From NCBI GenBank assembly GCA_029889005.1, contig GCA_029889005.1_4349.1: DNA of 44,477 bases, one strand, 5' to 3'. Origin of the DNA: a phage. Shown in pieces: positions 1 through 44,477 of the stretch. How positions within the stretch are numbered: position 1 is the first letter of the stretch; every line of letters begins with the position of its first letter. Under the pieces are notes generated by a model, which saw nothing but the letters and a program-made list of their open reading frames with translations, was not told the DNA's origin and searched no databases. The position numbers were made by a program, and so were the translations under genes.

Positions 1-985
1 CATCGTTGATTATAGTATTACTTGCGGACTCAAACATCACGCACCCTGCTGTTTTATTTGTAGCATACCCGGAGTAGTCGCCCCGTATGCCGCTTACAAT
101 GTATCCAGACGGACCCCCATCGCCAGGGTATGCTATTAAACTAAATCCAGTTCCCTTTGCATTTTTAAAATCAATACCTTTAATAGTAACGTCCTGCCCA
201 CCGGCGAAGGAAACCTGCTGACCCTGTGTGGAGTCCGTTGCCTTATTTCCTACAATACTCAGGGTGCTAAGTAGCCCTCCTGCAGGTTTATCAAAGATTA
301 AGTGGTTTCCAGAATCGTTTGATTGTTTTAAAACCCCACCCCCTGTTCCGAATAGAGAGCATGTCGGGTGGGAGAGTAGCGACGTACTATACTCCCCTTG
401 CGGTACAAGCACCCCGTTACTAGCTGTAAGCGCTCGGTTAAGGGCGTTTGTGTAATCAGGGTCAGTACCTAAATAGAAGTCCAGAACGGAAACTACTTCT
501 CTATTTTTATCGTGTTGCGTCCTGCCGACAGCGTCGGTAAATGGTTGTCGGACGCCGACCATGGCATCACCTAATGTCGCATTGTCTGTGCTGGATAAAT
601 CATTCCGTAAATCAGGGTCAGTCTGCGGCTTCCAGTTAGCGTTACCAACCGGGTTAAACGATGCGGGGACAACAACCGGCAGAGTCCCGGTATATGAGTA
701 CCACGTCTTGCTTACAGGGTCATACACCACTTTGTCGCGGTCATTAACTGTTAACGTACCGCCGGTGGAAAAGTCCCACGATACGGGAGAAAAACCGGCA
801 TCACGCAACACAGCAGGAAGCGTCTTCTGGGTCTGCCCGGTAACAGGGTTGGTCGCGTAATCAATATCGGCGCCACCAGCAACCCCGCCGGATTTACCGG
901 TGATAACCTCGGCTTCAAAAATTTGGTGTTTCTTGGCGGTTTGTAAATCCGCCAGGCTTAAAACGTCACCGCATCCGCTTGACAT
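1..985 (-). CDS. Tailspike N-terminal protein (3' end runs off window start)
   Basis: ATG at 985..983 with AGAGGA 8 nt upstream, directly after fibre gene stop; frame open to position 1; N-terminal anchor-like region then beta-helix-like repeats. Not in ORF track because no in-window stop. Confidence 0.6.
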   Translation of the reverse strand, partial: MSSGCGDVLSLADLQTAKKHQIFEAEVITGKSGGVAGGADIDYATNPVTGQTQKTLPAVLRDAGFSPVSWDFSTGGTLTVNDRDKVVYDPVSKTWYSYTGTLPVVVPASFNPVGNANWKPQTDPDLRNDLSSTDNATLGDAMVGVRQPFTDAVGRTQHDKNREVVSVLDFYLGTDPDYTNALNRALTASNGVLVPQGEYSTSLLSHPTCSLFGTGGGVLKQSNDSGNHLIFDKPAGGLLSTLSIVGNKATDSTQGQQVSFAGGQDVTIKGIDFKNAKGTGFSLIAYPGDGGPSGYIVSGIRGDYSGYATNKTAGCVMFESASNTIIND

Positions 986-997
986 ATAGAGTCCTCT

Positions 998-3565
998 TTA
1001 ATTAAAACCATTGCTGAATCCGTCGGAGAAACCGCTGCCGTATGGCGCGACGCCGTCGTATTTATAGAATCCGTCGTCATAGTTGTAGCCAGTAATCTTA
1101 ACCGTGCGGTCGTCGCCGGGGTCGATTGAAGAAACAACTATCTTCTGAGCATTATGCCTTGCTTCGTTGCCGAATGAAAACTCAGTTTTCAGCGCACTAT
1201 TCCCTGTGTAGATTGCTTCCTCCGGCGCAGAGAGCATAATCACCTCGCGGTCGTGGTTTCCTTTGATAACAGAAATACTCTGCACGGAGCCATCGCGCTT
1301 CTTGAGGATGATGGAGTGGTCATCGCCGGGGGTAAACGTAACCGGCTGTGACAGTGTCAGCGTAAGCCCATTAACGGCAACAACATAGCCATCCTGCGGC
1401 GCGATACGCGAGCCTTTAACGACACTGATTACGCCGCCCGGTGTAGCGAGTGCCCCCTCTTCGGTAGCTTCGAACTCTACGACAACTTTACTTAACGCAT
1501 TGCGCTGATAGCGACGCCACGCCAGCCAGTACGCCTGCTGATAGTTGCGCACGCCTTTCGATTCGTATTCCTCAGTGTTTGCACCGAGTTCTTCCGGGAT
1601 ATAAATAGTTTCCTGTACGTTTGTATCCGGGTCGATGTACGAGAACGCCAGGCTATCGTAGGTAGTAGAATCGTTGAATGTGCGCGTCCATTTCTCTGTA
1701 CCGGTAGTTTTACTGCGGTGGGTGAACACCATTTCAGGCCCTGCAACCGGACGGTCGAAACGCAGCATAATGTCTGCGCCTTTACGGTACGCAGTACAAA
1801 ACACGGCTTCGGCTATAGTCTGAACGATGTCTTGCATGGTTGTGTCGTAGTCGTCGAATGTGTAGCAGAACTGCCCGGCTAATTCACTGTCAAAATACGA
1901 CTCAATTTCTTCCTGCACGGCAAGTAACTTGTCCATATTTGCCGTTGTCAGTTCCAGATTACCCACCACAGGGTCACGCGCCAGCCTGATTAGCGACTGC
2001 ACGGCCTGAGTGTTCGGTGTCATTACCGTATCGAATACGCCGTTACCTAAGTATTTGTAGCACATCTCGGTAGCAATCATGCGCAGTTCCGGTTCTGACA
2101 CCTCGGCTGCACGTGGGGTTTGTTTACGAGCACAGTGCACCGTAGTGCGGTTGCCGTAGTGCGGTGTTGTGTCCAGAGACTGTCCGTACAGGTTAGTGAA
2201 AGTAACCTCGTCGCTAACAGTACCCTCAAAATCTTTATCAGTATCGGAAACACGGCGCATACGGGCGCGGAATCTGGAAGCGGTAGGCAAGCTTCCGTAT
2301 AGGGTAATACCAGTGTAATCGGTGTTTCTCCCTGTAACAGTGCCTTGCACGGTGAATATGCCACCAACGGGCTGTTTCAATTCGTCCACCATCTGGTATT
2401 GCAGTTCCACCGTAACGGAGGCGCGGTTATAATCGCCGTTATATTTATACATGCCGTTGCTGGCGGCGACATTGGCTACAACACGGTTGACCGTACCGCG
2501 GGTGATGTACGCCCATTCAGAGAGGGAAGCCGCGTAAGTGTCCGCCGGACCTATGAGATGGTTACCCTCTTCACCTATAAACCATACAGATGTTCCTAGC
2601 TGGTTCCATATTGATTGATTTGTACTGACGTCCACAATAAGGGTCGTTTCACTAACAGAAAGAACCGTGTACCTCCCGTCCAGGTTAACCTCATTACCCA
2701 AAGACCCTGGGGTTGTATCTGCATATACGTTATCGAAGTATGCCAGGTCCCCGACCGCCAAAAACTCATCGAAACCAGCGTCATCGCCTACTACAACGCC
2801 GGTTGTTCCCTGCCGCTGGACAGTGTAGTCCTGCACGTCTATAGCGATATCATTAGGGGCGGGAAGAACAGCGCCATCGACATCGGCGTTTTTAAATGTA
2901 ACGTACAATTTCTGGTCTATAGGGTCGCCGATATGCAATTGTGGTGTGCTGGTGTTATTCGGCGAAGTGTAAGGAGAATACACCGTCACCGACGAGCCAG
3001 TTATCTCGCTGATTCGGGTATCTGCCTCAGTTACACCGTCTTCCTCAATATGCAGATACCCTCGACCGGCGTCATAGTACGCATATTCAATAAGCGCCCC
3101 CGTGGCGTTAAACACCTTATACGTCTGCATCAGGTCATTGGGTATAGTCTGCACTGTCCCGCAGATGTCATAAGAACGTTCATAAGGACGTGGCTTGTTC
3201 GAGCGGTCAGTAAGACTGTTGTTAGGCGACGTAGCCTGATTGTTGGTAGCGGAATAATTAGCGTTAGCTGCTGTGTTTAGCCCGAACAATTTGGCAATTG
3301 GCTTAAGGATGAAACTGAATACACTACCGATAGCGTCGCCGATACCACCGCCTGCACCCTCGATAATGTGGTACACGGCGTCCTCGTCTTTGAGCGCATT
3401 GAAGTCGTCTGTTACATCTGTATCATCGCCAATCTCACCGAGATAGACGCGCACAGGCACGCCGTAGGGAATACGGTTAACGACAAACTCCATCGGCATC
3501 CCGACGTGTTTTGTACGGTCGAAAGCGCCTTCAGCGTTTCGCGTGTAGTGCAGGATTATCGCCAA
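998..3565 (-). CDS. Large tail fibre / host-specificity (J-like) protein
   Basis: 855 aa ORF, TTG start with GGAG upstream, between distal tail genes and tailspike; call by size and position only. Confidence 0.5.
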   Translation of the reverse strand: MAIILHYTRNAEGAFDRTKHVGMPMEFVVNRIPYGVPVRVYLGEIGDDTDVTDDFNALKDEDAVYHIIEGAGGGIGDAIGSVFSFILKPIAKLFGLNTAANANYSATNNQATSPNNSLTDRSNKPRPYERSYDICGTVQTIPNDLMQTYKVFNATGALIEYAYYDAGRGYLHIEEDGVTEADTRISEITGSSVTVYSPYTSPNNTSTPQLHIGDPIDQKLYVTFKNADVDGAVLPAPNDIAIDVQDYTVQRQGTTGVVVGDDAGFDEFLAVGDLAYFDNVYADTTPGSLGNEVNLDGRYTVLSVSETTLIVDVSTNQSIWNQLGTSVWFIGEEGNHLIGPADTYAASLSEWAYITRGTVNRVVANVAASNGMYKYNGDYNRASVTVELQYQMVDELKQPVGGIFTVQGTVTGRNTDYTGITLYGSLPTASRFRARMRRVSDTDKDFEGTVSDEVTFTNLYGQSLDTTPHYGNRTTVHCARKQTPRAAEVSEPELRMIATEMCYKYLGNGVFDTVMTPNTQAVQSLIRLARDPVVGNLELTTANMDKLLAVQEEIESYFDSELAGQFCYTFDDYDTTMQDIVQTIAEAVFCTAYRKGADIMLRFDRPVAGPEMVFTHRSKTTGTEKWTRTFNDSTTYDSLAFSYIDPDTNVQETIYIPEELGANTEEYESKGVRNYQQAYWLAWRRYQRNALSKVVVEFEATEEGALATPGGVISVVKGSRIAPQDGYVVAVNGLTLTLSQPVTFTPGDDHSIILKKRDGSVQSISVIKGNHDREVIMLSAPEEAIYTGNSALKTEFSFGNEARHNAQKIVVSSIDPGDDRTVKITGYNYDDGFYKYDGVAPYGSGFSDGFSNGFN

Positions 3566-37137: not shown

Positions 37138-40100
37138 ATGAGTTACCTGTTCTTAGACTTTGAAACATTCTCAGAAGCCGATTTGAAGAAAGTCGGTTCT
37201 TACGCTTACGCCGAACACCCGTCAACCGAAGTGCTTATCTGTACATATGCTTTTGACGACGAACCTGTGCGGGTATGGGATTGCACCGACGGCAGCGACA
37301 TGCCGGGGGATTTACACCGCGCACTGCGCCGCCTTGTTAAGCCCAACAGCCGCATCAAGATGGTGTGGCACAACGGTGGACTTTTCGATCGCCTAATCAT
37401 GAAACACTGCTGGGACTTTGATATTCCGGTAAGTAACACCATTGATACTATGATTTGGGCGTTCCGTCACGCGCTGCCGGGTTCTCTTGATGCGCTGTGC
37501 GAAGTGCTGGGCGTGTCTGCAGACAACGCGAAAGATAAACGCGGAAAGGCTCTGATTAAGCGTTTCTCTAAACCGACGCCGAAGAACTACAAAATCCGCC
37601 GCTACACCGCAGAAACTCACCCTGACGAGTGGGCGATGTTCATCAGGTACGCCGTGAGCGACATCACTGCGATGCGTGAAGTCTTCCATAAGCTGCCGCG
37701 TTGGGGTAACTCCGAGTTCGAAGACCGTGTACTGGAACTTGACCAGTTAATCAACGACCGCGGATTTAAGGTTGACGTCGCACTGGCGGAAGCCGCGATT
37801 GAAGCCGTAGAGAAGCACAAGGCACAGTTACAGGAAGAAGCTCAACGTAAATACGGCGGCTCGCTTACCGGTAAAGACTTCCTTCCGATTCTGCGTGAAC
37901 TTGCGCCCGCGCACCGCATACACAATGCACAGAAGTCGACGCTTAACGACCTGTTGGCAGATGATGATTTACCGGACGACGCCCGGATGATTATCGAAAT
38001 GCGCCTCGGGGCCGCGTCAACAGCGTCCACGAAATATAACCCGCTGCTGTTAGGCCGCTCGTCGGACGACCGACGCCGCGGTTGTATCCAGTACGGCGGA
38101 GCCAAGCGTACATTACGATTTGCCGGTAAAGGCTTTCAGCCGCAGAACCTCGCGCGGGGGTACTATCACGATGATGAACTGGATAAAGGTATTTCAGCGT
38201 TACTTAAGGGCCGCGCGCATCGCCGTTTCGATGTCGCTAAGCTAACGGCATCGACGGTGCGTAGCTGCATTATCCCGGAAGCCGGAAAAAAGTTTGTCGT
38301 CGCCGATTACTCTAACGTTGAAGGTCGGGGGCTTGCGTGGCTGGCAGGCGAAGAAACCGCGCTCGATACATTCCGTGCGGGATTGGATATTTACTGCGTA
38401 ACAGCAGGTAAGATGTTCGGCATGGACCCTGATTACATCAAGAAAGAACGTAAAGACTTACGCCAGATTGGTAAAGCCTGTCTTCACCGCCATACCCAAG
38501 TTTTGACCGATGGCGGATTTAAGGATATTATGGCGGTCGCATCAACAGATAAAGTATGGAGTGGTGAAAAATGGGTGAATACAAAAGGCGCGCACCTTAT
38601 GGGGTGGAAACCGGTGATAAATGTGGACGGAGTGCTAATGACCGAAGACCACAAAATATTGACGCATTCCTGGAAGCAGGCAAAGCAACTCGTTTCAAAC
38701 AAATATATGATGGACCGCGCCCTGGAGATAGGTATGGACGCCTGGTTATCCTGCGCGAGTTACCAAAACGACAAGGTCATAGACAACTACTTGCTCAATG
38801 TGATTGCGGAGAGATTCCGGGGCGCGTCGGGTACGACAATGTTAGAAGGGGTAAAACCACTCAATGCAACCGCTGCGCACTTGAAGCAACAAAAAAATAT
38901 CGTAAACAGTATTTCTGCTACGAAGACGCAATGCCGGACGACGGGCACAGAGCGCGATTGCTCAACCGGTTATCTGCGGCAATATCGCGAACAACAAAAC
39001 CTAACGACAAAGGCTATAAAAACTATGGTGCCAGAGGGATTACCGTATGCGAAAAGTGGAAGGCCGATAGAAGGGCGTTTCTTCTCTATGTTCAAACTCT
39101 GGAAGGCTGGGATGACCCAAAACTCGAAATGGACAGAATCGACACAGACGGTAACTACGAACCTGGAAACATTCGGTTTGTCAGCCGTTCTGAAAACTGC
39201 CGTAACAGACGGCAAATACCTGAGCTTCAACGAAAGTATGATGCAGCCGTTGCCCGCATTGCTGAGCTTGAACGGGAAATTAACCTACTGCGAGCCGGTT
39301 TACGACCTGATTGATGTGGAAGACGGAAACCGTTTTCTTATAGCCTCCGACTCTGGCTTTCTTGTGGCGCATAACTGCGAACTTGGACTCGGCTACGCCG
39401 GGGGTGTCGGTGCTTTCGTTCAGTTCGCCAAGAACCTCGGCCTTGACCTTGTAGATATGGCAAAAACAATGGATGGGACTTTCCCTGACCACATCTGGGC
39501 CGCTACCGCGCGCGGGTACGAGTGGGCGCGTATTCAGGAAGCCAAGCGACCACCGCGTCCGGGTGAAAAGGATGACCGACCATCATATATTCTTGATAAG
39601 AAAGTCTGGCGTACATGCGACGCAATTAAGCGTATGTGGCGGGAGTCCCACCCGGAAACAGTAGCTTTCTGGCGTGATATTGAAGACGCAGCTATGGCAG
39701 CAATCCGTAATCCGGGGAAAGAGTTCACCGCTGGCCCTCGCGGGGTTAAGTTTTCTCGCAACGTAGAAACAGACAACAACGGCAACAAAGTCGCTGGTTG
39801 GTGGTTGCGCATGACGTTGCCGTCAGGTCGCGTTATGTCATACCCGGGCGTCGGGTTGAGCGTGTCAAAAGAGACAGACGAAGACGGAAAAGTTTCTACT
39901 AACGTGCGCATCAAGTATCAGGGTGAAAATCAGTTAACCAGGCAGTGGGGCTTCCAGTACACCTACTCCGGTAAACTGGTGGAAAACTGCACTCAGGCAC
40001 TGTGCCGTGACTTGCTGGCTAATGCGCTACTTAACGTTGAAGCAAACGGCTACCCGATTGTACTTCACGTACACGATGAGATTATCTGCGAGACACCAGA

Positions 40101-40215
40101 TTTACCAGAATACAATGTTGCAGAGCTTGAGCGATTGATGTGCGAATTACCAGAATGGGCGGAGGGGTTCCCTCTTGTAGCGGAAGGTCAGGAGTTAAAA
40201 CGCTATGCTAAGTAA
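37138..40215 (+). CDS. Family A (Pol I-like) DNA polymerase with 3'-5' exonuclease domain, interrupted by an intein
   Basis: Exo motif FLDFETFSE; motif A VVADYSNVEGRGLAW; motif B split as RQIGKA | intein | CELGLGYAGG; motif C VLHVHDEIICE. Confidence 0.9.
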   Translation: MSYLFLDFETFSEADLKKVGSYAYAEHPSTEVLICTYAFDDEPVRVWDCTDGSDMPGDLHRALRRLVKPNSRIKMVWHNGGLFDRLIMKHCWDFDIPVSNTIDTMIWAFRHALPGSLDALCEVLGVSADNAKDKRGKALIKRFSKPTPKNYKIRRYTAETHPDEWAMFIRYAVSDITAMREVFHKLPRWGNSEFEDRVLELDQLINDRGFKVDVALAEAAIEAVEKHKAQLQEEAQRKYGGSLTGKDFLPILRELAPAHRIHNAQKSTLNDLLADDDLPDDARMIIEMRLGAASTASTKYNPLLLGRSSDDRRRGCIQYGGAKRTLRFAGKGFQPQNLARGYYHDDELDKGISALLKGRAHRRFDVAKLTASTVRSCIIPEAGKKFVVADYSNVEGRGLAWLAGEETALDTFRAGLDIYCVTAGKMFGMDPDYIKKERKDLRQIGKACLHRHTQVLTDGGFKDIMAVASTDKVWSGEKWVNTKGAHLMGWKPVINVDGVLMTEDHKILTHSWKQAKQLVSNKYMMDRALEIGMDAWLSCASYQNDKVIDNYLLNVIAERFRGASGTTMLEGVKPLNATAAHLKQQKNIVNSISATKTQCRTTGTERDCSTGYLRQYREQQNLTTKAIKTMVPEGLPYAKSGRPIEGRFFSMFKLWKAGMTQNSKWTESTQTVTTNLETFGLSAVLKTAVTDGKYLSFNESMMQPLPALLSLNGKLTYCEPVYDLIDVEDGNRFLIASDSGFLVAHNCELGLGYAGGVGAFVQFAKNLGLDLVDMAKTMDGTFPDHIWAATARGYEWARIQEAKRPPRPGEKDDRPSYILDKKVWRTCDAIKRMWRESHPETVAFWRDIEDAAMAAIRNPGKEFTAGPRGVKFSRNVETDNNGNKVAGWWLRMTLPSGRVMSYPGVGLSVSKETDEDGKVSTNVRIKYQGENQLTRQWGFQYTYSGKLVENCTQALCRDLLANALLNVEANGYPIVLHVHDEIICETPDLPEYNVAELERLMCELPEWAEGFPLVAEGQELKRYAK
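38479..39375 (+). mobile_element. Intein (299 aa) inserted in polymerase motif B
   Basis: N-terminal CLHRHTQVLTDGG (block A) and GVLMTEDHKILT (block B); C-terminal VYDLIDVEDGNRFLIASDSGFLVAHN then +1 Cys. Confidence 0.8.
38571..39314 (+). CDS. HNH homing endonuclease encoded inside the intein in a different reading frame
   Basis: 247 aa ORF out of frame with the polymerase; ATG directly follows an in-frame TGA with GGTGA 4 nt upstream; motifs RYGRLVILREL ... CDCG ... CNRC, YKNYGARGITVCEKW, LEMDRIDTDGNYEPGNIRFVSRSEN. Confidence 0.75.
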   Translation: MGEYKRRAPYGVETGDKCGRSANDRRPQNIDAFLEAGKATRFKQIYDGPRPGDRYGRLVILRELPKRQGHRQLLAQCDCGEIPGRVGYDNVRRGKTTQCNRCALEATKKYRKQYFCYEDAMPDDGHRARLLNRLSAAISRTTKPNDKGYKNYGARGITVCEKWKADRRAFLLYVQTLEGWDDPKLEMDRIDTDGNYEPGNIRFVSRSENCRNRRQIPELQRKYDAAVARIAELEREINLLRAGLRPD

Positions 40216-41074: not shown

Positions 41075-42495
41075 GTAAGTTTCAAAGGCGCGAATACCAG
41101 AAGCTCATGACTTCGTTCATGCTGCAACACCCTCGCTGTAATATCTGGTGTGGCATGGGAGGGGGTAAAACCTCCTCTACTATGTGGGTGTTAAACCGCT
41201 TGTTCCGCAACGGGCAGCTTACAGAAGAGGACCGCGTGTTAATCCTCGCCCCGTTGCGTGTTGCGTCGGGTACGTGGCCTGCAGAACAAGAGAAATGGAA
41301 CTTCCCTTGTCTGCGTGTCGTCGATGCGACCGGTTCGGAGAAGCGCCGCATCGCGGCGCTGGAGTCAGACGCTAACGTGGTGTGCACTAACTACGAAGTT
41401 ATCGAGTGGCTAATTGACTACTACGGCAAAGACGACTGGCCTTTTACGGTTATCGTTGCCGATGAAAGCACGAAGCTTAAATCGTTCCGCAGCCGTTCGG
41501 GTGGTAGCAAGCGGGCAAAGGCGCTCAGCAAGGTTGCGTTCGGAAAGGTTAAGCGTTTCATCAACCTGACAGGCACACCGTCACCAAACGGCCTCAAAGA
41601 CTTGTGGGGTCAGAACTGGTTTATCGACGCTGGCGAGCGCCTCGGCTCTTCGTACACAGCATTCACCGACCGCTGGTTTAACTCGGTACAGAAAGGTAAA
41701 TCGGCCATGGCCCGCGAGTATCATGCACGACCGGGTGCGGATAATGAGATTCATCAGAAGATGAAAGACATCAGCCTGACCATAGACCCTGCCGAGTGGT
41801 TTGGTTGTGAAGCGCCTGTTATCGTACCGGTGGAAATAGACCTGCCGAAGAAAGCGCGTCAGGCGTACATAGATATGGAGGAGAAGTTATTCGCAGAACT
41901 GGAGAGCGGGGAAGTTGAAGCGGCTAACGCTGCGGCGAAGACCTCAAAGTGCTTGCAGATTGCATCTGGTGCTGTATATGTAACCGGGCCAGACGGCGAA
42001 GCAACCAAAGAATGGGAGAAAGTGCACGACACGAAACTGGATGCGCTCGAGTCGATTGTTGAGGAGTTGCAGGGTGCGCCGTTGCTGGTAGCCTATCAGT
42101 TTAAACACGAACTGGAGCGTATCCTTAAGCGATTCCCACAGGCACAGGCGTTCGCCAAAGGCGCTAGGGGGAACAAGCAGATGGAAGCGTGGAACCGTGG
42201 GGAAATCGAGATTTTATGCGTGCATCCTGCGTCAGCCGGGCATGGTTTGAATTTACAGGACGGGGGTCATCATCTGGCGTTCGTCTCGCAAGGCTGGAAC
42301 CTTGAGCACTATTTGCAGGTTGTTGAGCGCATAGGTCCAACACGCCAGAAACAGGCGGGTCACGAGCGCCCGGTGTTCCTTTATCACATCGTTGCTAAAG
42401 ACACTCTGGACGAGGTTGTCGCCGCGCGTACCGACGAGAAGAAATCGGTACAGGAAGAGTTGCTTAATTACATGAAGAGACGAGGTAAGAAATGA
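41071..42495 (+). CDS. SNF2-family helicase
   Basis: Walker A GMGGGKT, DExx box VIVADEST, LTGTPSPNGLKDLW motif, C-terminal helicase domain. Confidence 0.8.
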   Translation: MSKFQRREYQKLMTSFMLQHPRCNIWCGMGGGKTSSTMWVLNRLFRNGQLTEEDRVLILAPLRVASGTWPAEQEKWNFPCLRVVDATGSEKRRIAALESDANVVCTNYEVIEWLIDYYGKDDWPFTVIVADESTKLKSFRSRSGGSKRAKALSKVAFGKVKRFINLTGTPSPNGLKDLWGQNWFIDAGERLGSSYTAFTDRWFNSVQKGKSAMAREYHARPGADNEIHQKMKDISLTIDPAEWFGCEAPVIVPVEIDLPKKARQAYIDMEEKLFAELESGEVEAANAAAKTSKCLQIASGAVYVTGPDGEATKEWEKVHDTKLDALESIVEELQGAPLLVAYQFKHELERILKRFPQAQAFAKGARGNKQMEAWNRGEIEILCVHPASAGHGLNLQDGGHHLAFVSQGWNLEHYLQVVERIGPTRQKQAGHERPVFLYHIVAKDTLDEVVAARTDEKKSVQEELLNYMKRRGKK

Positions 42496-43007
42496 TGGAT
42501 TTCGAAGAGTTTCTACTTAAAGCTCATCTGCTGGCGCGTGGGTTTGACGCTGACCGTCTCCAGGTAGTCTTAGCCCCTGGAGTAGCTACGTTTTACCTGT
42601 GGGGGTTTGACGGTAGGCTTCGCGGATACCAGCATTACAAACCACATGCCGAAAAGAACTGTAAAAACCCTAAAGACGCGCGGTACTTTACCAGAACAAC
42701 AAGGCCGTGTTTATGGGGGCTTGAGTATTTGCCGGAAAGCGGGGTGGTATTTGTTACCGAAAGCATATTCAAAGCCGTAGCCTTGATGAATTGCGGGTTC
42801 AATGCTGTAAGCGCACTGGGGTCAAATATATCAACAGACCTACGGCAGCAAATGTCACTTTTGCCGTATGACTGGGTGTGCGCTGGCGACAATGATAAAG
42901 CTGGATTAAAGTTCAGCAAAACATTCACCAGAGGATTTGTATCTAACGACCTTGATGAACTTTGTGAAGAAGAAATAACGTATCTTGCGAGGAAATTTAC
43001 CAGATGA
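42492..43007 (+). CDS. Toprim-domain protein
   Basis: VFVTESIFKAVALMNCGFNAVSALG and CAGDNDKAG match Toprim E and DxD motifs. Confidence 0.6.
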   Translation: MMDFEEFLLKAHLLARGFDADRLQVVLAPGVATFYLWGFDGRLRGYQHYKPHAEKNCKNPKDARYFTRTTRPCLWGLEYLPESGVVFVTESIFKAVALMNCGFNAVSALGSNISTDLRQQMSLLPYDWVCAGDNDKAGLKFSKTFTRGFVSNDLDELCEEEITYLARKFTR

Positions 43008-43142
43008 ACATCATAGCCCCAATTCCGGCATTGCAAAAACGTATCAAGGAACTCGAAGAAGAGGTTCTGCGGCTACGTCAGCAAAGAGACGCCGCTAATG
43101 CGCAACTGGCGTTTGTACTGGAGAAGTTATCAGAAGAGTAGA

Positions 43143-43172
43143 GAAAAGGCCCCGTTTGGGGCCTTAGTTTAT
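43143..43172. terminator. Bidirectional intrinsic terminator
   Basis: AAGGCCCC-GTTT-GGGGCCTT hairpin with T-runs on both strands between convergent gene ends. Confidence 0.7.
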
Positions 43173-44477
43173 TTAACTGTTTGTCAGGGTAGCCACTAAT
43201 GTCTCAAGCGCTATAATCCTTTTCTCTAACTGAGCTGCTTTACGTCGCTGTAACGCAGCCTCTAATATCAATACCTCATCATAACGAATACCATACCGCT
43301 CCCCTGCCGCCGTAGCTTTTGTTAATACTTCCCCAGATTCCTCATCAATAATTTCCGGAGACGCTTCCCACTTATCGTAGCACAGGAAACCGTACTTAGT
43401 CGCATCCAACCCGTGCCGGGTAAACGCCTCAATTGCTCGTTGGGCTACTACTCCAAAGTGCCACCTAGCTGCATCCTCCCCCTTCTCTGCAACCCTATCC
43501 AGGTACTTATATTGAACTAAATTAACTTCAGCCCAAGCGTCTAACATAGCGTCAGTTAATTCCAGGGGTAGTGTCTTGGCTCTCTCGTCAGACGTAACCG
43601 TAAACGCTGTTTGAGTGAATCCGCCGGACAAAGCGCGACTTGCCGACCCGATAGCGACGGTGTTTGCACTGGATGGTGTAATAGCCGTCGGGGCTATTTG
43701 AATATACGCCGATGCGTCAGAGGCTAAGCGTAAATCACCATTAACCAGAGAAATAGTTCGAGAAGTACTATCAGATGTGAGTAATTTTATCTGAGAGGTC
43801 GTACCTCCACCAATAGCCAAAGATGTAGCCCCATCGGAAATTAGTCTGAATTTATCAGCTGTCACAAAAGGCAATGCAGAAGTATCTATATACTTAGTGA
43901 ACCACTCAAACCTACCGGACATGGACCCTATGTATTGTCCTATAGCGGGGGCGTGTACCACGTTACTGGTGGTAGTACCATCAATGCTAGAGACTCCGGT
44001 TATAGTAGATAGTGAACTAAGAAGACTGTTCTTGGGTCCAGGGTGCTTTACTTCCACAAAGTTACGGGTAGTCCCTGTCGCTAGTGTAACAACCCCGGAA
44101 GCACTATACATAGGGAAAACCGATGCGTAGTTATTACTAGCTCCGGCTAAAAACCTAACAGAAGTCGCGGTTTGCGTTTGCCCTAAACTATTAGTTCCGC
44201 TGCACCCAACCATTAGAATATTATCAGCGGCATTATAGTTGCCTTGTAATGTAACGCCGTGTGCTTGCGTGGCCTCGGAGGAGGAGTAATCAGCTACAAC
44301 ATTTGTCACCAGATTACCTGAACCCTTGCCGGTGACCACAGCGGCATACTTAGCGTTATCAGCAACAACATTACTGATAATATTACGGCTAGGGGCATTG
44401 GTCGTCTCGGTGCCATTATAAACAACGTGCTGACAGCTTTGCCCAATGACGCCACTAACAACATTACATTTAGCATC
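43173..44477 (-). CDS. Tailspike/fibre C-terminal protein with intramolecular chaperone (S74-like) domain; 5' end at window edge
   Basis: Frame of track ORF 43173..44339 stays open to 44477; beta-helix-like repeats then TVTSDERAKTLPLE ... ARWHFGVVAQRAIEAF, the autoproteolytic chaperone signature. Confidence 0.7.
   Translation of the reverse strand, partial: DAKCNVVSGVIGQSCQHVVYNGTETTNAPSRNIISNVVADNAKYAAVVTGKGSGNLVTNVVADYSSSEATQAHGVTLQGNYNAADNILMVGCSGTNSLGQTQTATSVRFLAGASNNYASVFPMYSASGVVTLATGTTRNFVEVKHPGPKNSLLSSLSTITGVSSIDGTTTSNVVHAPAIGQYIGSMSGRFEWFTKYIDTSALPFVTADKFRLISDGATSLAIGGGTTSQIKLLTSDSTSRTISLVNGDLRLASDASAYIQIAPTAITPSSANTVAIGSASRALSGGFTQTAFTVTSDERAKTLPLELTDAMLDAWAEVNLVQYKYLDRVAEKGEDAARWHFGVVAQRAIEAFTRHGLDATKYGFLCYDKWEASPEIIDEESGEVLTKATAAGERYGIRYDEVLILEAALQRRKAAQLEKRIIALETLVATLTNS

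What the first reader, a model, noticed from the sequence alone, without database searches (positions are those of the whole stretch)
43173..44477. Tailspike C-terminal intramolecular chaperone with predicted autocleavage site
The C-terminus carries the SDERAK ... chaperone signature found in endosialidase and fibre proteins, where the domain is cleaved off at the Ser after folding. The upstream beta-helix-like part is the likely receptor-binding or depolymerase region and sets host range.
Basis: partly seen in the sequence, partly recalled or inferred. Interest (0 to 1): 0.4.

Follow-up and report, generated by a model that had tools for sequence, protein, structure and literature searches.

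The report
Phage tailspike with self-cleaving chaperone
This is the tail end of an ordinary, already-sequenced type of coliphage tailspike gene: a capsule-cutting enzyme related to K5 lyase, followed by a well-known folding-helper domain that is predicted to cut itself off after assembly.

Summary
Window 43173-44477 (minus strand) encodes the last 434 residues of a Kagunavirus tailspike. SDERAK sits at fragment residues 296-301 (43575-43592) inside a Pfam Peptidase_S74 match (E 4.7e-14, 52.9 bits, cut-off 22). Ser, Asp and Lys are invariant in 27 homologues.

The gene is cut by the window ends. Its first 328 codons lie at 2-985 (minus), and 47 nt are missing relative to phage fEg-Eco19 (97.9% identical, 778 aa).

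The upstream part is a close homologue of K5 lyase: PDB 2X3H E 2.3e-115, and 58% identity to K1-5 gp46 over residues 177-768. Residues 1-~130 are the Guernseyvirinae virion anchor.

Predicted mechanism: the C-terminal domain trimerises the chains and templates the intertwined stalk. Ser640, activated by Lys645, then cleaves the Thr639-Ser640 bond. This releases a 139-aa, 15.7 kDa fragment (not ~10 kDa) and leaves a 66 kDa mature lyase spike.

K5 lyases were among the founding families of this chaperone, and 98-99% identical genes are already in GenBank as "tailspike". Heparosan specificity is inferred, not shown.

The parts
43173..44477 (-). 3' part of the tailspike gene: the last 434 codons plus the stop (43173-43175). 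It corresponds to residues 345-778 of the reconstructed 778-aa protein.
   Evidence: Open frame. 99.0% nt identity to the fEg-Eco19 tailspike gene, positions 1-1305 of the plus-oriented gene segment. 11 phage records at 98-99.2%.
2..985 (-). 5' part of the same tailspike gene: codons 1-328, with the ATG at 985-983. 47 nt (16 codons, VIARNYPKFGAVELKT in fEg-Eco19) are absent between window position 1 and 44477.
   Evidence: Translation and alignment to the fEg-Eco19 tailspike. blastn 96.3% over 985 nt, with the gap at gene positions 1306-1352.
572..985 (-). N-terminal virion-anchor domain (aa 1-138), shared with Guernseyvirinae tailspikes that carry other receptor-binding modules (K1G, K1ind3, Jersey-like Salmonella phages).
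   Evidence: 63% identity to the K1G tail protein over aa 1-138. tblastn spread. Pfam Tail_spike_N at 24.3 bits, just under the cut-off of 25. phrog_29731 E 7.5e-51.
43923..44477 (-). C-terminal half of the K5-lyase-like right-handed beta-helix (fragment aa 1-~185). It includes Tyr at fragment aa 20 (codon 44418-44420), which aligns with Tyr229 of the 632-aa K5 lyase.
   Evidence: PDB 2X3H E 2.3e-115. Model pLDDT about 85-90 with regular strands. Foldseek 2x3h_A E 1.3e-24, 63% id. Residue mapping. The boundary at ~185 is approximate.
43593..43922 (-). C-terminal stalk of the mature spike (fragment aa ~186-295), ending ...TAFTVT. By homology it is the intertwined trimerisation region that the chaperone folds.
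   Evidence: Aligns to the last ~110 residues of the 2X3H chain and to the endoNF stalk in 3GW6. Low monomer pLDDT at 187-221 and 272-303, as expected for an inter-chain fold.
43176..43592 (-). Intramolecular chaperone / S74 self-cleaving C-terminal domain: 139 aa, 15.7 kDa. It begins at the nucleophile Ser (43590-43592), with Lys at 43575-43577. The Pfam core lies at 43407-43592 and the terminal long helix at 43179-43283.
   Evidence: Pfam PF13884. 3GUD, 3GW6 and 4UW8 by sequence and by fold, with 3gud TM 0.69-0.70. Invariant S/D/K. Helix 399-433 with pLDDT 83-91. Molecular weight.
43146..43165 (.). GC-rich hairpin (AAGGCCCC-GTTT-GGGGCCTT) between the tailspike stop and the stop of the convergent + strand ORF (43004-43141). 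It is probably a shared, two-way terminator.
   Evidence: Terminator scan. Sequence.

Best explanation
The region is the 3' 1,305 nt of a ~2,337-nt Kagunavirus (Guernseyvirinae siphovirus) tailspike gene on the minus strand. The protein has four parts: a virion anchor (aa 1-~130), a right-handed beta-helix homologous to the K5 capsule lyase KflA (~177-~530), an intertwined C-terminal stalk (~530-639), and an S74-type intramolecular chaperone (640-778). The proposed mechanism has four steps. (1) After translation, three chains are brought into register by the chaperone domains, whose long terminal helices form a trimeric coiled coil. (2) This templates folding of the intertwined stalk. (3) Once the stalk is folded, Ser640, activated by Lys645, attacks the Thr639-Ser640 peptide bond. 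This releases a 139-aa, 15.7 kDa domain and leaves a kinetically stable 66 kDa-per-chain trimer on the virion. (4) The mature spike binds the host capsule and cuts it by beta-elimination, most likely K5 heparosan. That brings the phage to the outer membrane and sets host range. What is shown here: domain homology, conservation of the catalytic residues, cassette boundaries and fold. What is inferred from characterised homologues: trimer templating, cleavage, lyase activity and substrate.
For: S74 domain: Pfam E 4.7e-14, 52.9 bits against a cut-off of 22. All 90 database homologues carry PF13884. Ser296, Asp297 and Lys301 are invariant in 27 sequences. The Ser and Lys align with A911 (the S911A mutant) and K916 of endoNF 3GW6, and with the first residue of the released GA-1 gp12 domain 3GUD. 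The phi92 record annotates its released CTD as starting at the equivalent Ser. Fold: 3gud TM 0.69-0.70, with 3gw6 and 4uw8 also hit. Lyase: 2X3H E 2.3e-115 for the C-terminal half and 2.5e-44 for the N-terminal half. 58.3% identity to K1-5 'K5 lyase' gp46 over residues 177-768. phrog_14895 E 3e-170. The 2X3H chain ends at ...FTVTS, at the Ser of the predicted cleavage motif, i.e. one residue past the predicted Thr|Ser bond. Literature: K5 lyases are one of the four phage families in which this chaperone was defined, and the Ser-Lys dyad is required for cleavage (PMC8326128). Recombinant K5 depolymerase runs at 52 kDa 'after proteolysis' (PMC5696595), matching Ser505 of the 632-aa protein. Phage vKMB36, which carries a 98.4% identical gene segment, makes haloed plaques (PMC11162368). 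Cassette behaviour: the nearest backbone relative vB_EcoS-22664BS2 is 93% and 98% identical on the two flanks. It differs from codon ~130 to the stop and has no S74 domain.
Against: No experiment on this protein or its 98-99% relatives shows cleavage or lyase activity. Two residues I recall as proposed catalytic residues of KflA (Glu206, Lys208) fall in the 47 nt missing from the window. They are seen only in relatives, where FGAVELK is conserved in all 13 full-length homologues shown and in fEg-Eco19. The stalk Arg that helps cleavage in endoNF (R897, 14 residues before the Ser) lies 15 residues before the Ser here and in K1-5 K5 lyase, so that detail may differ. Identity to the characterised K5 lyase is only 32-48% in the first ~120 residues of the helix. 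Relatives have very narrow host ranges: 2 of 137 strains for fEg-Eco19 (PMC9038960) and 3% for vKMB36 (PMC11162368). K1-5-type K5-lyase phages reach 17-22%, although those carry a second spike. Heparosan specificity is therefore not secure.
Confidence: 0.88

Rival explanations
1. Same architecture and same self-cleaving chaperone, but the beta-helix has drifted to a different polysaccharide substrate (another capsule or a modified heparosan). The phage would then not be K5-specific.
For: Only 58% identity to K1-5 K5 lyase, falling to 32-48% in the N-terminal turns of the helix. A separate set of 755-aa anchor-bearing tailspikes is 89-92% identical to K1-5 lyase, so the window type is a distinct lineage. 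Relatives have narrow host ranges: 2/137 (PMC9038960) and 3% (PMC11162368). One relative, EF2-1, was isolated on E. fergusonii.
Against: The FGAVELK motif and the Tyr aligned to Tyr229 are conserved. Identity is 60-75% through the central helix around these residues. A narrow host range can equally come from secondary receptors or host defences.
Confidence: 0.27
2. The S74 domain is present but is not released. It would stay on the mature spike as a structural or receptor-contacting tip.
For: Cleavage has not been measured for this protein. The Arg position in the stalk differs by one residue from endoNF R897.
Against: The Ser-Lys dyad and the surrounding invariant residues are intact. The K5-lyase lineage with the same Arg position is processed to 52 kDa (PMC5696595). 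The 2X3H chain ends at the Ser of the motif, one residue beyond the predicted bond.
Confidence: 0.05
3. The spike binds the glycan but is catalytically dead, acting as an adhesin only.
For: Catalysis is untested. Two candidate catalytic codons are not in the window.
Against: Those residues are present in all near-identical relatives. Haloed plaques are reported for vKMB36 (PMC11162368).
Confidence: 0.04

Closest known systems
K5 lyase KflA of coliphage K5A / gp46 of phage K1-5 (PDB 2X3H; AAG59821)
   Same: Homologous from the start of the beta-helix to the C-terminus: 58.3% identity over 592 columns. Same FGAVELK and Tyr positions. Same ...AFTVT|SD..K junction and an S74 domain of similar size. 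The processed form is documented at 52 kDa (PMC5696595).
   Different: KflA is a 632-aa podovirus (Vectrevirus) spike with a short adaptor-binding N-terminus. The window protein is ~778 aa with a ~130-aa Guernseyvirinae siphovirus anchor. Identity is only 32-48% in the first helix turns. The substrate is not verified.
Tailspikes of Kagunavirus fEg-Eco19, fPoEco01, fFiEco02, vKMB36, EF2-1, PDP21P8 (GenBank)
   Same: Essentially the same gene: 98.0-99.2% nt identity over 1,305 nt and 97.9% aa identity over 778 aa for fEg-Eco19.
   Different: The window's genome backbone is closer to vB_EcoS-22664BS2 (94% over the first 25 kb), which has a different receptor-binding module. None of the deposited records or their papers names the K5-lyase relationship. 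PMC11162368 states there is no similarity to other depolymerases.
Endosialidase endoNF C-terminal intramolecular chaperone (PDB 3GW6; MEROPS S74)
   Same: Same domain family and same Ser-x4-Lys dyad (S911/K916). The chaperone sits after an intertwined stalk and ends in a long helix (PMC8326128).
   Different: About 34% identity. The enzyme upstream is a beta-propeller sialidase rather than a beta-helix lyase. endoNF has longer 'tentacle' insertions. The stalk Arg is offset by one residue.
Bacillus phage GA-1 gp12 neck appendage chaperone domain (PDB 3GUD)
   Same: Best structural match for the released domain: TM 0.69-0.70, 44-45% identity. Its chain begins SDERHK, nearly the same motif.
   Different: It belongs to a Gram-positive podovirus appendage with an unrelated upstream domain.

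Membership tests
Peptidase S74 / intramolecular chaperone (ICD, CIMCD) of phage spikes and fibres | Match to the family profile above the curated threshold | tested here: met
   PF13884 E 4.7e-14, 52.9 bits against a cut-off of 22, full profile 1-58.
Peptidase S74 / intramolecular chaperone (ICD, CIMCD) of phage spikes and fibres | Catalytic Ser and Lys five residues apart (endoNF S911/K916) | tested here: met
   S296/K301 of the fragment (S640/K645 of the full protein) align with A911 (S911A mutant) and K916 of 3GW6. They are invariant in 27 homologues and in K1G, phi92, GA-1, a K1F-like phage and K1-5.
Peptidase S74 / intramolecular chaperone (ICD, CIMCD) of phage spikes and fibres | Fold of the released domain, including the long C-terminal helix that forms the trimeric coiled coil | tested here: met
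   Model helix 399-433 with pLDDT 83-91. Foldseek 3gud TM 0.69-0.70; 3gw6 and 4uw8 at E 1e-6 to 4e-5. The model is a monomer only; the trimer was not modelled.
Peptidase S74 / intramolecular chaperone (ICD, CIMCD) of phage spikes and fibres | Position at the extreme C-terminus, directly after an intertwined trimeric stalk | tested here: met
   The domain runs to the stop codon. The preceding ~110 residues align with the C-terminal intertwined region of 2X3H and the stalk of 3GW6.
Peptidase S74 / intramolecular chaperone (ICD, CIMCD) of phage spikes and fibres | Stalk Arg assisting cleavage (endoNF R897) | tested here: inconclusive
   An Arg is present (GSASRALS) but at -15 rather than -14 from the Ser. 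The K1-5 K5 lyase has the same offset. Its role is known only for endoNF (PMC8326128).
Peptidase S74 / intramolecular chaperone (ICD, CIMCD) of phage spikes and fibres | Autoproteolytic release after trimer folding | not testable with these tools
   Needs expression of wild type and S640A/K645A mutants, followed by SDS-PAGE or mass spectrometry.
K5 lyase (KflA/ElmA-type heparosan lyase tailspikes) | Homology across the whole beta-helix | tested here: met
   2X3H E 2.3e-115 and 2.5e-44. K1-5 gp46 58.3% over 592 columns. Foldseek top hit.
K5 lyase (KflA/ElmA-type heparosan lyase tailspikes) | Proposed catalytic residues Glu206, Lys208, Tyr229. These are recalled from Thompson et al. 2010, which is not held in the library; the residue types at these positions of the 632-aa protein were confirmed. 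| tested here: inconclusive
   The Tyr is present in the window (fragment Y20, codon 44418-44420). The Glu and Lys codons fall in the 47 nt missing from the window, but are present in fEg-Eco19 (VELKT) and in all 13 full-length homologues shown.
K5 lyase (KflA/ElmA-type heparosan lyase tailspikes) | Beta-eliminative cleavage of K5 heparosan and dependence on a K5-capsulated host | not testable with these tools
   No host capsule typing was found for any 98-99% relative (PMC9038960, PMC11162368; searches).
Guernseyvirinae (Kagunavirus) tailspike | Conserved N-terminal anchor, with the gene placed directly downstream of the J-like central tail fibre gene | tested here: met
   aa 1-138 are 55-87% identical to K1G, K1ind3 and Jersey-like tailspikes. 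The 855-aa ORF at 998-3565 (minus) lies immediately upstream of the tailspike start, though its only Pfam match (Phage-tail_3, 19.7 bits) is below the cut-off of 23 and 'J-like' rests on position. Locus rule from PMC11990801.

The most novel reading that the evidence does not exclude
The window/fEg-Eco19-type spike may be a second K5-lyase lineage (~58% identical to KflA) whose substrate has shifted away from plain K5 heparosan. That would explain the very narrow host ranges of its carriers and would add a new glycosaminoglycan-like capsule lyase specificity.
Probability: 0.25. Interest if true: 0.35.

Novelty: already known. Interest (0 to 1): 0.1.

Why it matters
The practical value is better annotation. 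The tailspikes of about a dozen deposited Kagunavirus phages, several of them proposed for therapy, can be relabelled as K5-lyase-family depolymerases. Each would have a defined maturation site (Thr639|Ser640) and a 66 kDa mature form. This tells anyone cloning the enzyme where to truncate it, or to keep the chaperone during expression. It also predicts K5-type capsule as the receptor to test. It corrects a published statement that this depolymerase resembles no other (PMC11162368). It does not reveal new biology.

Tried and rejected
1. I tried to read the primary K5 lyase papers (Thompson 2010 by DOI and as PMC2911314, O'Leary 2013 as PMC3505012, Clarke 2000 as PMC94548). None is held. The catalytic residue numbers therefore rest on my memory, checked only against residue types.

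2. I searched for host capsule types of the near-identical phages (fPoEco01, fFiEco02, VIPECOTPH05A, KMB36, PDP21P8). I found only host-range breadth, with no K typing.

3. The search for homologous proteins returned nothing above 62% identity, although GenBank holds 98% relatives. This is probably the candidate-word limit of that tool. The phage BLAST collection was used for close relatives instead.

4. The monomer AlphaFold model is poor (pLDDT <50) for residues 187-221 and 272-303, including the cleavage site. I did not interpret active-site geometry from it.

5. I considered the 388-aa GTG-started ORF listed at 43173-44339 as a possible true gene. I rejected it because homologues align from fragment residue 2 and the frame is open to the window end.

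6. I considered the + strand ORF at 43897-44130 (77 aa) inside the region. It is an antisense shadow ORF within a gene that is strongly supported on the other strand, and I did not analyse it further.

7. I considered whether the DNA polymerase insertion was something new. It is a known, annotated intein of this phage group.

Full report
**What is at the coordinates**

The minus strand of window 43173-44477 is a single open frame of 434 codons ending at a stop codon at 43173-43175. It has no start codon in the window because the frame runs off the window end.

The missing 5' part is at the other end of the window. Positions 985-2 (minus strand, ATG at 985-983) encode 328 residues that are the N-terminus of the same protein.

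Against the 2,337-nt tailspike gene of Escherichia phage fEg-Eco19:
- window 43173-44477 matches gene positions 1-1305 (plus-oriented) at 99.0%;
- window 1-985 matches positions 1353-2337 at 96.3%;
- 47 nt are absent, covering 16 codons (VIARNYPKFGAVELKT).

The window is therefore a permuted, almost complete ~44.5-kb Kagunavirus genome whose ends fall inside the tailspike gene. When the 16 residues are borrowed from fEg-Eco19, the protein is 778 aa and 97.9% identical to the fEg-Eco19 tailspike.

**The observation**

SDERAK is at fragment residues 296-301, which are residues 640-645 of the full protein. The Ser codon is at 43590-43592 and the Lys codon at 43575-43577. The evidence that this is a real domain and not a chance motif:
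- Pfam Peptidase_S74 (PF13884, 'chaperone of endosialidase') matches residues 296-357 across the whole profile, with E 4.7e-14 and 52.9 bits against a cut-off of 22.
- Solved chaperone domains match by sequence: GA-1 gp12 3GUD at E 1.7e-25 (its chain starts SDERHK), endoNF 3GW6 at 6.7e-23, and T5 pb1 4UW8 at 8e-9.
- In the 3GW6 alignment, the window Ser pairs with the Ala of the S911A mutant and the window Lys pairs with K916.
- Ser, Asp and Lys are invariant in a 27-sequence alignment.
- The Ser and Lys are also conserved in a hand-picked set from K1-5, K1G, phi92, GA-1 and a K1F-like phage.
- All 90 database homologues carry PF13884.

**Where the cut falls and how big the fragment is**

Three lines of evidence bear on the position of the cut:
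- The phi92 GenBank record annotates the released domain as a mature peptide starting SDGTLK, so the Ser is its first residue.
- The 3GUD chain starts at the Ser.
- The K5 lyase crystal chain 2X3H ends at ...FTVTS, one residue past that bond.

The predicted cut is between Thr639 and Ser640. It gives a 139-aa, 15.7 kDa C-terminal fragment and a 639-aa, 66.1 kDa mature chain from an 81.8 kDa precursor.

**What the upstream part is**

It is more than 'beta-helix-like': it is a close homologue of the K5 capsule lyase.
- The C-terminal fragment hits PDB 2X3H (K5 lyase KflA of coliphage K5A) at E 2.3e-115. It also hits a newer 843-aa tail spike entry, 9VVR, at 2e-167.
- The N-terminal fragment hits 2X3H at 2.5e-44 from residue 176 onward.
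- Against the annotated 'K5 lyase' gp46 of phage K1-5, identity is 58.3% over residues 177-768.
- phrog_14895 (tail spike) matches at 3e-170.

An AlphaFold model built with 27 homologues has a confident beta-helix (pLDDT ~85-90 for residues 1-180) and a confident chaperone domain. Confidence is low in the stretches that are intertwined between chains in the real trimer. Foldseek against the PDB puts 2x3h_A first (E 1.3e-24, 63% identity), followed by the three solved chaperone domains; 3gud has TM 0.69-0.70.

From memory, Thompson et al. 2010 proposed Glu206, Lys208 and Tyr229 as catalytic residues. That paper is not in the library. The 632-aa K5 lyase does have E, K and Y at exactly those positions. 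The Tyr aligns with fragment Tyr20 (codon 44418-44420). The Glu and Lys lie in the conserved FGAVELK motif, which falls in the 47 nt missing from the window. It is present in fEg-Eco19 and in all 13 full-length homologues shown in the alignment.

**The N-terminus and the cassette**

Residues 1-138 are 55-87% identical to the N-termini of Guernseyvirinae tailspikes that carry quite different distal domains, such as the K1G and K1ind3 sialidases and the Jersey-like Salmonella spikes. The gene sits directly downstream of a large ORF (855 aa) at 998-3565 on the minus strand; by its position this is the J-like central tail fibre gene, though its only Pfam match (Phage-tail_3, 19.7 bits) falls below the cut-off of 23. 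That position is the usual tailspike locus in this group (PMC11990801).

The closest backbone relative over the first 25 kb is vB_EcoS-22664BS2, at 94% identity. Around the tailspike its pattern is:
- 93% identical up to window position ~597, which is codon ~130;
- 98% identical again from 43170, just past the stop codon;
- a different 661-aa spike in between, with no S74 domain.

The lyase, stalk and chaperone therefore move together as one exchangeable cassette on a conserved anchor. This is direct support for 'sets host range'.

A second group of anchor-bearing 755-aa spikes from metagenomes is 89-92% identical to K1-5 lyase. The window type is thus a distinct lineage of the same family.

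**Mechanism**

The following is established for the family in the literature. The chaperone domains trimerise and drive folding of the intertwined stalk. A Ser-Lys dyad then cleaves the chain, releasing the chaperone and leaving a very stable trimer. K5 lyases are one of the four phage protein families in which the domain was defined (PMC8326128). Recombinant K5 depolymerase migrates at 52 kDa 'after proteolysis' (PMC5696595), which fits Ser505 of the 632-aa protein.

By homology I assign the same sequence of events here, with cleavage at Thr639|Ser640. I did not show cleavage, lyase activity or substrate. Phage vKMB36, which has a 98.4% identical gene segment, makes plaques with halos (PMC11162368), consistent with an active depolymerase.

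**Uncertainties**

- Identity to the characterised K5 lyase falls to 32-48% in the first helix turns.
- Carriers of this spike have very narrow host ranges: 2 of 137 strains for fEg-Eco19 with the receptor unknown (PMC9038960), and 3% for vKMB36 (PMC11162368).
- I therefore put about 0.25-0.3 on a shifted substrate.
- The stalk Arg that assists cleavage in endoNF is one residue out of register here and in K1-5 K5 lyase. Since K5 lyase is processed, this is probably harmless.

**Comparison with what is known, and verdict**

The chaperone and its association with K5 lyases have been known since 2007-2010. Genes 98-99% identical to this one are in GenBank as 'tailspike' in 11 records.

The only new point is a small annotation one. 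Neither the fEg-Eco19 paper nor the vKMB36 paper recognised the K5-lyase relationship, and the latter states that the depolymerase resembles no other (PMC9038960, PMC11162368).

The finding is ordinary, so I score interest low.

Noticed in passing
window 1 and 44477 (the two ends): The window is a permuted, near-complete Kagunavirus genome broken inside the tailspike gene. 47 nt are missing relative to fEg-Eco19. The missing piece encodes VIARNYPKFGAVELKT, which contains the Glu and Lys aligned to KflA Glu206 and Lys208. There is no terminal repeat between the ends.
   Followed up: yes
window ~597 and 43170-43172: These are recombination junctions of the receptor-binding cassette. The nearest backbone relative, vB_EcoS-22664BS2, is 93% and 98% identical on the two flanks. 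From tailspike codon ~130 to the stop it carries an unrelated 661-aa spike without an S74 domain.
   Followed up: yes
window 38479-39375 (+), inside the DNA polymerase ORF 37138-40215: A 299-aa insertion starts with Cys and ends ...HN followed by Cys, splitting the RQIGKA|xELGLGY polymerase motif. It has no Pfam or PDB sequence hit. It is 82-90% identical to segments annotated as an intein in DNA polymerases of Jersey-like Salmonella phages. It is a known intein.
   Followed up: partly
window 42492-43007 (+): This 171-aa ORF matches Pfam Toprim_2 (23.1 bits, cut-off 22.1). The syntenic ORF at the equivalent position in fEg-Eco19 is annotated 'HNH homing endonuclease'. The two were not aligned here, but that annotation is probably wrong.
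   Followed up: no
window 43146-43165: A perfect 8-bp GC-rich hairpin lies between the convergent tailspike gene and the 45-aa ORF at 43004-43141. It is probably a two-way terminator separating the structural and replication modules.
   Followed up: partly
fragment residues 279-283 (window ~43629-43643): The stalk Arg in GSASRALS lies 15 residues before the catalytic Ser in the window protein and in K1-5 K5 lyase. In endoNF (R897), K1G, phi92 and GA-1 it lies 14 residues before. This may be a small mechanistic difference of the K5-lyase lineage.
   Followed up: no
relatives: OR525703 (vKMB36), OL539727 (fEg-Eco19): The published descriptions do not recognise the K5-lyase homology. PMC11162368 says the vKMB36 depolymerase has no similarity to any other depolymerase, while the same paper notes K5-lyase similarity for its Vectrevirus phages.
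   Followed up: yes
P0004, P0006, P0008 (metagenome proteins): These are 755-756-aa tailspikes with a Tail_spike_N anchor. Their distal 600 residues are 89-92% identical to K1-5 K5 lyase. The classical podovirus K5-lyase module has evidently also been grafted recently onto anchor-bearing spikes. Their source genomes were not examined.
   Followed up: no
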